From assembly GCF_030013205.1 (NCBI RefSeq), contig NZ_CP122648.1: a stretch of 64,000 nt of DNA, one strand, 5' to 3'. This stretch comes from Escherichia coli. GTDB taxonomy: Bacteria > Pseudomonadota > Gammaproteobacteria > Enterobacterales > Enterobacteriaceae. Every line of letters starts with the position of its first letter. Position 1 is the stretch's first letter. Shown one piece after another: positions 19,501 to 22,500 of the stretch. Made by a program: the position numbers.

Positions 19501-22500
19501 AGGCATTTGCTGCATTTATCCTTCGTGATATCGGACGTCGGCTGGTCATATTCATCCGCGACAGCCGGACCGTGATAACCGCACTCATCACCGCGATAGG
19601 TCCAGGTGCAGGTATTAGCCAGCATGATGCGCCCCGGAAAAACAGCACCGTCCGTTTCCGTCGGCGTGGACAGTACAAAAGAGGCACTGACCGCGCTCAG
19701 TTCGCTGCACTGCTCGATGCGCCAGCGGCTGATCACCTCCTGCTCCGGATCGGCGTCACTGTTTCCGTTGACGAAGTTCACCGCATCCAGAAAACGGGCG
19801 TAAACCTTACGCCTGACCACCGTTCCGCCGACCAGACTCTGCAGGTCTTCCGCCATCCCGGTGACCATTCCGTGCAGGTTAGAAACCGTCAGTGTCGGAC
19901 GGGCAGCACTGCCCTTGCCGTTCAGTTCAAATCCCGTCCCCTGAATGGGGTATGCCTGATACTGCCGCCCCTGCCAGGTAACCGGCTCACCTTTTTCGTT
20001 CTGCTCATTACAGAAAAAATAACGTTCACCACCGACCTCTGTCAGATCGATTTCCCAGAGCACCGCCTGGGCTGACTGAGTGAGGCGTGTCGTCTCATGA
20101 TGTGTTTCCTGTGGAATATCCTGCATCAGAGCCTCCTATGCCACGACCTGTTCAAAATCTGCCGTTATGGTTACCCACAACGCCCCCACGCTTGCCGACC
20201 ATTTACGACAAACCACCCTGATCGGCTTCCAGTCATAAGGTGGCGTCCACTGAAATGCGCGGACGCCACCGTGCCGTTCCAGAAAGGATTTTAAAGATGG
20301 GTGTTCACATTTACGAACACGTATCGTCACGCTGTAAGTCGACAACTGGTTATTCAGTCCCGCCGCACGACGCTGTTCATAACCATCGCCCAGCTTCACT
20401 GTCACCACTTTCGGCTCTGATACCACATTCATATCCGGGCGCACTTTCCAGTGAAACGTCTCCATTACCGATATGCTCCACTTAACCGACCACCATCACG
20501 GGCCTGCTGTTGCATAAAGTCCGCTGCCGCTTTTTTCCCAAGGTCATAAACCACCTTCAGGGCAGCAGGACCTATCTGCCCGTTCGTGCCATCGTTATTG
20601 ATCTCGATGTTGTACTGCGGGGCAAACATCGCCATACCTGAACCACCAATATCCGCCACAACCCCCAGCTTACCGTCAGCACCACGACGCAGTGGCAGAA
20701 TGGCTTCAGGTCCAGCTTCCCCCATCACACCCGCGCCTTTTGCAAAAGCAAAAAACGTCGGACGGTTAACCACCGTGCCACTGTAGCGACTCAAATCAGC
20801 CGACTGATAAACACCGCCATCAGCATTGGCTACAAAATCAAAAGGCAGCGCGGAAGCAATGCCTTTTACCGCTTTCATTAAAGCTATCTGAGCCATGATT
20901 CTGGACATATCTGACAGCACAGAAGAGGTGAAGGATTTGAAATTGAGTTTGCCTGTAGTACAGAATGTCGCCAGCCAGTCACTCATGCTACTGAACGCAG
21001 ACGTGAACAACTGTTCCACTGTCCCGGCTGTGTTATCCGCATTCTCAGTGACATTCTGGAGTGCACGCAGGACTCCGTTTTTCCAATTACCCTGAGCAAT
21101 TTCAAGCCGTTGCCAGTAACGGCGATTCTCATTCAGTTGTCGGTTCAGACTCTCCGTCAGCGCCTGCTCGGCCTTTCTGTAGTCATCCGTGTTATATGTC
21201 CCTTTCTGCTCACTATCATGCCTTTCGGTGACATCAGTGTGTCTATCCATCCGGCACGGTTAGCCAGCGTTATCCCGGATCCCCTCAGCCGGTCATGGCA
21301 TCCATAGCTGGCTGAAAATATTCACCGCAGTGCGGACATGGCCAGTACCAGCGGCGGCGGTCACCACGATTGTAAAGGGAAAGAATACCAGTCGTCGGTG
21401 GCGCTTCATGAGGCGACTTACGTCGCCATTTGCTGTCGCAGATGTCACGTCCCGGCGAGCTCTCCACCAGAGTCATCCCGGCGGACATAAATGTGGTGGT
21501 ACGTTTTGAGGCCAGGGAGAAACCATCACCCTCGCTGTCGATATTCTCCGGAAAACGGTCGTAATCGGTTAAGGCGACAAACCGGTAATCCGACGACGAC
21601 ATAATGTTGACCGAGGGCCAACCAATTTTAAGGAACGAGCCATCCCTGAACGTCTTATCATGGACATTATTGTCGTTACGACGTGGACTCATTCTTTTCT
21701 TTACCGCCGCACTGCTTCTGAACGTTCTGTCGAGGCGCTTTTTAGAATGCTCGCGGGCCTTATCTTCGGTCATCTGCACAACGAGCATGTCCGAAGGATC
21801 GCAAACGATGGTATAGACAATCCATCCATCGATCAGACCAATGGTCTTCCCTGTTCGCGCAGGACCAACAAAAATCACCGCATCGTATTCACGCGATGCC
21901 AGGCAGTTCATGGGCTCAATGATGTAGGGTGTCAGTTCAGGATCCCATGGCACCGAGTTACCAGCCCCCTTGGGAACACGCATGAATTTTTTAACAGCCT
22001 CCGAAATCGGCATGCGACGTGGTGGGGAAAATCCTGCCGATATGTCCCTTCCCAAATTTCGGGCTGATGAAAAACCCATTATTCCTCCTAGAGACTCTCT
22101 CCTTCCTCATCAGGAATTAATTCAGCAGCACAAGCCTCGTAGGATTTTTCCTGAAGAGTGTATCGCAGGTCATCAATGGCCTGCTGTACAACGCCGACGG
22201 CCTGAGGAGTCAGAGCGCAATCGCGTTCAAGAACATCCGGAATTGTCTCCAGAACCTGGACGACAGCCTTTCTCATGGACGAATAGACGATGACTACTTC
22301 ATCAACTGGGATGAGTTTTCGCTGCTCCTTTTCCAGCTTGATCCTTTCATTTTCAGACTGGTACCAGTCCTTTCTCTCTTTCGGCTCCATACGGGATGGA
22401 TCATGAACAGAGTCTGCTGCCTCATGCTTCACACTAAACAGGGCGGGCCCGACATGCTGCAGGGCGTAAACGGGGTTCCCCCTGACAGTCGCAGCCACAG

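What the first reader, a model, noticed from the sequence alone, without database searches (positions are those of the whole stretch)
20465..22079. Internal deletion joins a truncated terminase large subunit to the tail of the tape-measure gene
The GpA-type terminase ORF (Walker A GPARTGKT, CPHCGE zinc motif) stops after 264 aa at 21285. About 35 nt later begins a 261 aa ORF that sits directly upstream of M-L-K-I-J and looks like the C-terminus of gpH. All head genes, head-tail connectors, major tail protein and tail chaperones that normally lie between A and H are absent. The element is therefore a cryptic prophage that cannot make particles, yet it keeps an intact-looking immunity region, lysis cassette, tail tip and fibre genes.
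Basis: partly seen in the sequence, partly recalled or inferred. Interest (0 to 1): 0.5.

Follow-up and report, generated by a model that had tools for sequence, protein, structure and literature searches.

The report
Defective prophage missing its head genes
A lambda-like virus integrated in this pig E. coli chromosome has recently lost about 10.4 kb that encoded its head and tail-shaft genes, leaving stumps of two genes side by side; this is ordinary prophage decay that the public annotation already flags.

Summary
On the minus strand, a 264-aa ORF (22079-21285) is the first 264 residues of a 699-aa GpA-type terminase large subunit. A 261-aa ORF (21250-20465) carries the last 250 residues of a 1018-aa lambda-type tape-measure protein and lies directly upstream of M-L-K-I-J.

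The window is E. coli ETEC4079 (NZ_CP122643.1). The element is a 32.7-kb lambdoid prophage in the 5' end of dusA. Sister strain ETEC6333 has the same prophage at the same site, undeleted (44.05 kb), and is base-for-base identical on both sides of each junction.

There are two deletions, not one:
- 8,979 bp, from terL nt 793 to TMP nt 792, with a GCT microhomology.
- 1,441 bp inside the TMP gene, with a GAT microhomology.

A 69-75 bp island of TMP sequence (21289-21215) remains between them. The ATG of the 261-aa ORF lies in this island, out of the native frame.

A third deletion of 897 bp removed lom and the 5' end of the side tail fibre gene, so the fibre module is not intact. No head, connector, tail-tube or chaperone gene occurs anywhere in the 64-kb window.

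PGAP already marks both stumps as partial pseudogenes. Among 5,426 complete E. coli genomes, only this one carries these junctions. Low interest.

The parts
9047..9062 (.). attL core: a 16-bp direct repeat (CAGTTTTTTCAGGCAT) in the 5' end of dusA, next to the integrase gene (9196-10293, +)
   Evidence: An exact 16-bp repeat is found at 9047 and 41753. PGAP annotates dusA at 8070-9107 and a tyrosine integrase at 9196-10293.
12382..14481 (-). Side tail fibre gene (stf) lacking its first 94 codons; lom is deleted. Junction 3 has a TG microhomology at 14480-14479.
   Evidence: 897 bp are missing relative to the KGu016 dusA prophage, which is 99.8% identical on both flanks. PGAP lists the gene as 'incomplete, missing N-terminus'.
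14595..20465 (-). Tail-tip genes J (14595-18074), I (18135-18782), K (18680-19423), L (19428-20126) and M (20136-20465), all full length
   Evidence: ORFs and PGAP annotation. The protein accessions are the same as in the KGu016 prophage.
20465..21250 (-). 261-aa ORF: 11 out-of-frame codons from the island followed by the authentic TMP residues 769-1018 (including Tape_meas_lam_C)
   Evidence: tblastn aligns TMP 767-1018 to 21223-20468. Frame analysis is and Pfam domains of the full TMP are. PGAP marks a pseudogene at 20465-21223.
21215..21217 (-). Junction 2: GAT microhomology (imperfect 7/9 over 21223-21215). 1,441 bp of TMP (nt 867-2298) are deleted, causing a frameshift.
   Evidence: The deletion is 1,441 bp relative to both ETEC6333 and KGu016.
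21215..21289 (-). TMP island: 75 bp (69 bp unique) equal to TMP nt 792-866 (aa 265-289 in the native frame)
   Evidence: 100% identical to ETEC6333 L005 32991-33065 and to Tritos 10501-10575. tblastn aligns TMP 265-290 here.
21287..21289 (-). Junction 1: GCT microhomology. 8,979 bp are deleted (terL nt 794 to TMP nt 791), and a TGA stop is created immediately after TerL codon 264.
21285..22079 (-). Truncated terminase large subunit: aa 1-264 of 699. The cut falls inside the ATPase domain, and the nuclease domain is absent.
   Evidence: 100% identical to ETEC6333 TerL 1-264. Pfam places GpA_ATPase at 40-303 and GpA_nuclease at 325-643 of the full protein. PGAP lists a pseudogene 'missing C-terminus'.
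22088..22615 (-). Terminase small subunit (DUF1441/Nu1-like), intact
   Evidence: PHROG 141 at E=4e-65. 100% identical to the ETEC6333 protein.
22780..22830 (-). cos region. The left cohesive end of phage Tritos (GGGCGGGAGCGT...) aligns from window 22811 downward.
   Evidence: Window 22811-22500 matches Tritos 1-312 at 99.7%, and the sequence upstream of 22811 resembles the Tritos right end.
23705..24742 (-). Lysis cassette: two holin-like genes and an M15 endolysin
   Evidence: PGAP annotation. The region has 0 differences from ETEC6333.
33739..34685 (.). Immunity region: cro-like gene (33739-33936, -) and LexA/CI-family repressor (34032-34685, +)
   Evidence: PGAP annotation. The region has 0 differences from ETEC6333.
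41708..41812 (-). attR: displaced original 5' end of dusA, annotated as a pseudogene, containing the 16-bp core at 41753-41768

Best explanation
The region is the scar of recent, strain-specific decay of a dusA-integrated lambdoid prophage in porcine E. coli ETEC4079. Two illegitimate deletions, each joined at a 3-bp microhomology, removed 8,979 bp and 1,441 bp. The first took the 3' two-thirds of terL, the gpW-like adaptor, portal, protease/major-capsid fusion, head-completion genes, Z, U, the major tail protein V, chaperones G/T and the first 791 nt of the tape-measure gene. The second took an internal, frameshifting part of the tape-measure gene. A 69-75 bp island of that gene survives between the two junctions. 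What remains is a TerL stump cut inside its ATPase domain with no nuclease domain, and a fortuitous ORF holding the last 250 residues of the tape measure. Shown: the anatomy, the endpoints, the microhomologies and the absence of any capsid or tail-tube gene in the window. Inferred: the element cannot build heads or tail tubes or cut and package its own DNA. Because the repressor, Q, lysis genes, cos, terS, integrase and tail-tip genes are unchanged, it is probably still inducible and lethal on induction, and it remains a source of tail-tip sequence for recombination with other lambdoid phages. Also inferred: the deletions arose by RecA-independent microhomology-mediated joining (slippage, template switching or end joining) and are neutral decay rather than an adaptation.
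For: The window is NZ_CP122643.1 (ETEC4079), and its junction is unique among 5,426 complete genomes. ETEC6333 has the same prophage at the same dusA site with full-length terL (699 aa), all head and tail genes and a 1018-aa TMP. The window shows 0 differences from it over 21287-35114, over the 75-bp island and over 21217-20158. Base-level junction alignments give GCT and GAT microhomologies and deletion sizes of 8,979 and 1,441 bp. The same three-segment pattern appears against phages Tritos and PhiR55_1. tblastn finds no head or tail-shaft protein in the window. Pfam shows the truncation falls within GpA_ATPase (40-303) and removes GpA_nuclease (325-643). PGAP independently annotates both stumps as incomplete pseudogenes. 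An unrelated strain, E1620, has an independent terL'-TMP' junction, so this kind of loss recurs.
Against: The raw reads are not available, so a mis-assembly cannot be formally excluded. However, junctions with 2-3 bp of homology are not what repeat collapse produces. Non-functionality is inferred from gene content and has not been tested. Head genes from another prophage elsewhere in the ETEC4079 chromosome could in principle complement in trans. I could only show that no second copy of the terL 5' part or of the TMP 3'-to-K region exists at megablast sensitivity (places_in_record = 1). The order of the two deletions, or whether they were a single complex event, cannot be resolved because no intermediate genome was found.
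Confidence: 0.92

Rival explanations
1. Assembly artefact: the prophage is intact in the real ETEC4079 genome, and the assembler dropped 10.4 kb.
For: The sister strains ETEC6333 and ETEC6334, from the same sequencing project, carry the undeleted version. No reads are available to check.
Against: The junctions share only 3 bp of homology and enclose a 69-bp unique island. Repeat-collapse errors occur at long repeats, and the deleted segment is not flanked by any. A third clean microhomology deletion (lom-stf) and a 1-bp frameshift in the same element fit real decay.
Confidence: 0.03
2. The junctions are recombination joints between two different prophages (a chimera) rather than deletions within one prophage.
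For: The tail-tip region (20157 to about 10781) is only 95-96% identical to ETEC6333 but 99.8% identical to the KGu016 dusA prophage. The element is therefore mosaic relative to its sister.
Against: The mosaic boundary lies at the end of gene M (first difference at 20157), about 1.06 kb from junction 2. Both flanks of both junctions are 100% identical to the single ETEC6333 prophage. The tail-tip replacement is therefore a separate homologous exchange in one of the two lineages.
Confidence: 0.03
3. The two ORFs are complete, functional short proteins, or the remnant is a domesticated module such as a tailocin, satellite or packaging-interference system maintained by selection.
For: cos, terS, a Walker-A-containing TerL fragment and full-length M-L-K-I-J are retained.
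Against: The ORFs are 100% identical to parts of 699-aa and 1018-aa genes and end or begin exactly at the deletion junctions. The TMP' ATG is out of the native frame, and by my reading of the sequence it has no obvious Shine-Dalgarno sequence. There is no tail-tube, sheath or chaperone gene, so it is not a tailocin. The arrangement occurs in only 1 of 5,426 genomes, so there is no sign of conservation.
Confidence: 0.02

Closest known systems
Undeleted sister prophage at dusA in E. coli ETEC6333/ETEC6334 (NZ_CP122600.1 about 4690662-4734714)
   Same: It has the same integration site, integrase, early and immunity region, Q, morons, lysis genes, cos, terS, terL 5' part, TMP 3' part and M. There are 0 nucleotide differences over the 13.8 kb to the right of junction 1 and the 1.06 kb to the left of junction 2.
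   Different: It retains the 8,979 bp and 1,441 bp lost here, plus lom and the stf 5' end (44.05 kb against 32.7 kb). Its L-K-I-J-stf region is a 95-96% variant.
Lambdoid phages Tritos (OV696610) and cdtI (NC_009514), and PhiR55_1 (PV340571)
   Same: The terS and terL 5' part are 99.4-99.9% identical to Tritos and cdtI. The TMP 3' part, M and L are 98.7% identical to PhiR55_1. The structural gene order is lambda-like, and the cohesive end is the same as in Tritos.
   Different: These are complete phages with full head and tail modules. Their early regions and integration modules are unrelated.
Defective lambdoid prophages of E. coli O157 Sakai (Sp1-Sp18; Asadulghani et al. 2009, PMC2669165) and the K-12 cryptic prophages
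   Same: They are the same kind of object: lambdoid prophages carrying deletions or other defects in morphogenetic genes. The paper's abstract reports that most Sakai prophages have multiple genetic defects, yet many are still inducible and released as particulate DNA.
   Different: This is a different strain, integration site and lesion, and nothing about this element's activity has been tested.
dusA-specific integrase elements (Farrugia et al. 2015, PMC4482086)
   Same: The integrase gene abuts the 5' end of dusA, and the displaced original 5' end lies at the other end of the element.
   Different: Membership of that integrase family was not tested by sequence comparison here.
Prophage in E. 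coli E1620 (NZ_CM180509.1 4415782-4417525)
   Same: A related lambdoid prophage in which an internal terL fragment directly abuts a tape-measure 3' fragment followed by M-L-K-I-J. It is an independent head-module loss.
   Different: The breakpoints differ, and terS and the lysis genes are also gone.

Membership tests
GpA-type terminase large subunit (Pfam GpA_ATPase PF05876 + GpA_nuclease PF20454) | Complete N-terminal ATPase domain (Walker A and B through the end of the domain) | tested here: not met
   In the full-length protein the domain spans aa 40-303. The ORF ends at aa 264. Walker A (GPARTGKT) is present.
GpA-type terminase large subunit (Pfam GpA_ATPase PF05876 + GpA_nuclease PF20454) | C-terminal endonuclease domain | tested here: not met
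   The domain lies at aa 325-643 of the full protein. That region is absent from the window.
GpA-type terminase large subunit (Pfam GpA_ATPase PF05876 + GpA_nuclease PF20454) | Sequence homology to the family | tested here: met
   PHROG 15 at E=6e-132. 100% identical to TerL 1-264 of ETEC6333.
Lambda gpH-type tape-measure protein | Full-length protein with TMP_2, TMP_4 and Tape_meas_lam_C domains | tested here: not met
   In the full 1018-aa protein the domains lie at 228-426, 616-693 and 811-885. Only aa 769-1018 remain in frame, and aa 265-289 survive as an out-of-frame island.
Defective (cryptic) lambdoid prophage | Integrated element bounded by att repeats, with an integrase and lambdoid gene order | tested here: met
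   A 16-bp core repeat at 9047 and 41753, an integrase next to dusA, and the order cI/cro-Q-lysis-cos-terS... J.
Defective (cryptic) lambdoid prophage | Loss of genes essential for virion production relative to an intact relative | tested here: met
   The 3' part of terL, portal, protease/MCP, head completion, Z, U, V, G, T and most of TMP are missing relative to ETEC6333.
Defective (cryptic) lambdoid prophage | Inability to form infectious particles | not testable with these tools
   This needs an induction or plaque assay.
Microhomology-mediated illegitimate deletion | Short (1-9 bp) identity shared by the two parental sequences exactly at the junction, with no long repeats | tested here: met
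   GCT at junction 1, GAT at junction 2 (7/9 imperfect) and TG at junction 3. By my own calculation, random joining gives 3 bp or more about 5% of the time.
Microhomology-mediated illegitimate deletion | RecA-independent mechanism (slippage, template switch or end joining) | not testable with these tools
   This is a historical event and requires genetics.
Phage tail-like bacteriocin (tailocin) or other domesticated tail module | Complete tail tube, tape measure, chaperones and baseplate/tip without head genes | tested here: not met
   There is no V, U, Z, G or T, and the TMP is truncated.
dusA-specific integrase elements (Farrugia et al. 2015) | Integrase adjacent to the 5' end of dusA, with the element restoring the dusA 5' end | tested here: met
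   Intact dusA at 8070-9107 abuts the integrase at 9196. A displaced 5' fragment lies at 41708-41812, and the core repeat is shown. The site is described in PMC4482086.
dusA-specific integrase elements (Farrugia et al. 2015) | Integrase sequence belongs to the DAI clade | not tested
   No comparison with reference DAI integrases was run.

The most novel reading that the evidence does not exclude
The retained cos-terS-TerL(1-264) cassette might not be inert. When late transcription is induced, the TerL N-terminal fragment, which in lambda gpA is the part that binds the small subunit, together with intact TerS could titrate or poison the terminase of a superinfecting or co-resident phage that uses the same cos. 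It would then act as a packaging-interference defence. Alternatively, the 32.7-kb cos-bearing remnant could be mobilised as a helper-dependent element.
Probability: 0.03. Interest if true: 0.45.

Novelty: already known. Interest (0 to 1): 0.08.

Why it matters
It matters little beyond bookkeeping. The result shows that this ETEC4079 prophage cannot be self-sufficient. It also gives base-exact endpoints for three microhomology deletions, with a near-isogenic undeleted parent (ETEC6333) for comparison. That pair is a clean natural example of how quickly prophages decay, since the flanks have 0 SNPs. It could serve as a matched pair for testing whether a head-less but lysis-competent prophage still costs or benefits the host. 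The element also carries morons that stay under phage late control regardless of the deletion: an Ais-like LPS heptose-phosphate phosphatase, an AraC-family regulator and a tRNA-Gly.

Tried and rejected
(1) Phage Tritos as the reference. It is good for terS and terL (99.9%), but its early region is unrelated and the TMP 3' part is only 92% identical. I replaced it with the sister-strain prophage.

(2) Junction 2 as the boundary of a swap between prophages. This is rejected because the first difference from ETEC6333 is at 20157, about 1 kb away.

(3) Intermediate genomes carrying only one of the two deletions. None was found among 5,426 complete E. coli genomes. Other records with both halves of the junction-2 query in one place have them 309-531 bp apart, so they are different TMP length variants.

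(4) Literature on strain ETEC4079. No paper was found.

(5) A terminator created at the junction. The consensus scan gave only weak hits inside coding sequence and nothing at 21215-21290 on the minus strand.

(6) The 81-bp 'capsid protein' pseudogene at 10600-10680 as a possible hidden capsid module. The same fragment is present in the intact relatives KGu016 and ETEC6333, so it is not one.

(7) I could not test whether the deleted 10.4 kb was moved elsewhere in the ETEC4079 chromosome, because the search tool reports only the best place per record.

Full report
**Observation.** The two ORFs lie on the minus strand exactly as described. One runs 22079..21285 (264 aa, containing VGPARTGKT and CPHCGE). 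The other runs 21250..20465 (261 aa), with 34 nt between them. M, L, K, I and J follow. The first ORF matches PHROG 15 (terminase large subunit, E=6e-132). The second matches tape-measure PHROGs (best E=2e-144), aligned only to the C-terminal ends of those profiles. The upstream ORF 22615..22088 is a terminase small subunit.

**Where the window comes from.** The window is E. coli ETEC4079 (pig faeces, Belgium), NZ_CP122643.1 4694873-4758872.
- The element is a lambdoid prophage inserted in the 5' end of dusA.
- Intact dusA (8070-9107) abuts a tyrosine integrase (9196-10293).
- The displaced original dusA 5' end is a pseudogene at 41708-41812.
- A 16-bp core (CAGTTTTTTCAGGCAT) is repeated at 9047 and 41753, giving a 32.7-kb element.
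- dusA is a described integration site for a family of prophage and island integrases (PMC4482086).
- PGAP already annotates 21288-22079 as 'terminase large subunit, incomplete, missing C-terminus' and 20465-21223 as 'tape measure protein, incomplete, missing N-terminus'.

**Mapping the lesion.** Against phages Tritos and PhiR55_1, the region splits into three segments rather than two. A better reference then appeared. Strains ETEC6333 and ETEC6334 carry the same prophage at the same site with a complete structural module: TerL of 699 aa, gpW-like adaptor, portal, ClpP-protease/major-capsid fusion, DUF2190, a head-completion protein, Z, U, V, G, T and a TMP of 1018 aa.

The window is identical to ETEC6333 on both flanks of both junctions:
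- 0 differences over 21287-35114.
- 0 differences over the 75-bp island 21289-21215.
- 0 differences over 21217-20158.

The base-level alignments give the two junctions:
- Junction 1: ...ATGACCG[GCT]GAGGGGATCC..., with GCT shared by both parents (window 21289-21287). 8,979 bp are deleted, from terL nt 793 to TMP nt 792.
- Junction 2: ...AAAGGCAT[GAT]AGTGAGCAG..., with GAT shared (21217-21215) and an imperfect 7/9 match over 21223-21215. 1,441 bp are deleted, TMP nt 867-2298. Because 1,441 = 3x480+1, this shifts the frame.

**Consequences for the ORFs.** In the terL frame, junction 1 immediately creates GGC-TGA, so TerL ends at residue 264.
- In the full protein, Pfam places GpA_ATPase at 40-303 and GpA_nuclease at 325-643.
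- The stump is therefore cut inside the ATPase domain and has no nuclease domain or C-terminal region.
- The island encodes TMP aa 265-289 in its native frame.
- The ATG at 21250 lies in the island in a different frame. It happens to be in frame with the TMP 3' part across the frameshifting junction 2.
- The 261-aa ORF is thus 11 spurious residues (MDRHTDVTERH) followed by TMP 769-1018, which includes Tape_meas_lam_C.
- From reading the sequence, no convincing Shine-Dalgarno sequence precedes this ATG.

**Is a head module hidden elsewhere?** tblastn of all 14 structural proteins of ETEC6333 against the whole 64-kb window returns only terS, TerL 1-264, TMP 265-290, TMP 767-1018 and M. The 81-bp 'capsid protein' pseudogene at 10600-10680 is also present in the intact relatives and is irrelevant.

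**Other lesions and mosaicism.**
- Relative to the KGu016 dusA prophage, which is 99.8% identical from the TMP 3' part through the integrase, the window lacks 897 bp. The junction is TG at 14480-14479. The loss removes lom from nt 51 onward and the first 282 nt of the side tail fibre gene stf. The fibre module is therefore not intact.
- yfdP has a 1-bp deletion at 35465.
- From 20157 leftward to about 10781, the window is 95-96% identical to ETEC6333 but about 99.8% identical to KGu016. This is a separate homologous replacement of L-K-I-J-stf in one of the two lineages. Its boundary is 1 kb from junction 2, so the junctions are not inter-prophage recombination joints.

**What is retained.**
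- cos: window 22811 corresponds to Tritos nt 1, with 99.7% identity over 312 bp.
- Also retained are terS, the two holins and M15 endolysin, Q, the cro/CI region, the integrase and M-L-K-I-J.
- All of these to the right of junction 1 are identical to the sister prophage.

**Frequency.** Among 5,426 complete E. coli genomes, only ETEC4079 has junction 1 or junction 2. No intermediate was found, so the order of the two deletions, or a single complex event, cannot be resolved. Strain E1620 shows an independent terL'-TMP' junction in a related prophage, so this type of loss recurs.

**Mechanism.**
- Shown: three clean deletions joined at 2-3 bp microhomologies, with no long flanking repeats.
- My own calculation: under random joining, a microhomology of 3 bp or more is expected about 5% of the time, so two such junctions suggest microhomology was used.
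- Inferred: the mechanism was RecA-independent illegitimate recombination (replication slippage, template switching or end joining).
- Inferred: the element can no longer cut cos (no nuclease), translocate DNA, or build proheads or tail tubes.
- Inferred: because repression, late gene activation and lysis functions are untouched, induction is probably still lethal. This argues for neutral decay rather than selected 'domestication'.
- Inferred: the remnant, at 74% of the 44.05-kb parental length, keeps cos. In principle a helper with the same terminase specificity could package it. However, ETEC4079 has no second copy of this terL 5' region or tail-tip region at megablast sensitivity (places_in_record = 1).
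- Context: defective lambdoid prophages with multiple defects that remain inducible are well documented in O157 Sakai (PMC2669165). Defective prophages are known donors of sequence to temperate phages (PMC3945230, title and abstract).

**Verdict.** This is a routine defective prophage, already flagged as pseudogenes in RefSeq. Interest is low.

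Noticed in passing
window 14476-14481 (junction); stf' 12382-14481; compare L008 22741-23632: A third microhomology (TG) deletion of 897 bp removes lom and the first 94 codons of the side tail fibre gene, relative to the KGu016 and ETEC6333 dusA prophages.
   Followed up: yes
window about 10781-20157: The L-K-I-J-stf-tfa module is 95-96% identical to the otherwise near-identical sister prophage in ETEC6333, but 99.8% identical to the dusA prophage of the unrelated strain KGu016. 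One lineage has had its tail-tip and host-range module replaced by homologous recombination.
   Followed up: partly
window 23058-23633 (+), 25201-25275 (-), 25693-26544 (-): Cargo genes sit inside the late region: an Ais-like LPS core heptose(II)-phosphate phosphatase on the opposite strand between the endolysin and cos, a tRNA-Gly, and an AraC-family regulator downstream of Q. Related prophages in many porcine ETEC genomes share the 21290-25300 block that holds the phosphatase and the tRNA-Gly.
   Followed up: no
window 23634-24742: The lysis cassette has two holin-like genes and an M15 peptidase endolysin but no annotated spanin (Rz/Rz1). The endolysin is followed directly by the oppositely oriented phosphatase gene. 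The arrangement is the same in the undeleted sister prophage.
   Followed up: no
window 35143-35504 (difference at 35465): yfdP is frameshifted by a 1-bp deletion relative to ETEC6333. A cluster of 7 substitutions at 39085-39299, around the DUF551 genes, is the only other notable difference in the 24 kb to the right of the junction.
   Followed up: partly
L006 (E. coli E1620, NZ_CM180509.1 4415782-4417525): An independent case in a related prophage: an internal terL fragment is fused directly to a tape-measure 3' fragment ahead of M-L-K-I-J, and terS and the lysis genes are also missing.
   Followed up: partly
window 21287-21289 compared with L005 23222/32200: Junction 1 joins nt 793 of terL to nt 792 of the TMP gene, almost the same distance into each gene. 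No homology was seen between the two sites beyond GCT, so I treat this as a coincidence.
   Followed up: partly
L005 37037-37611 and 41883-44011 (ETEC6333): The 'intact' sister prophage has its own annotated defects: tail assembly gene I is frameshifted and stf is broken into pieces. It may also be defective, or these may be sequencing errors.
   Followed up: no
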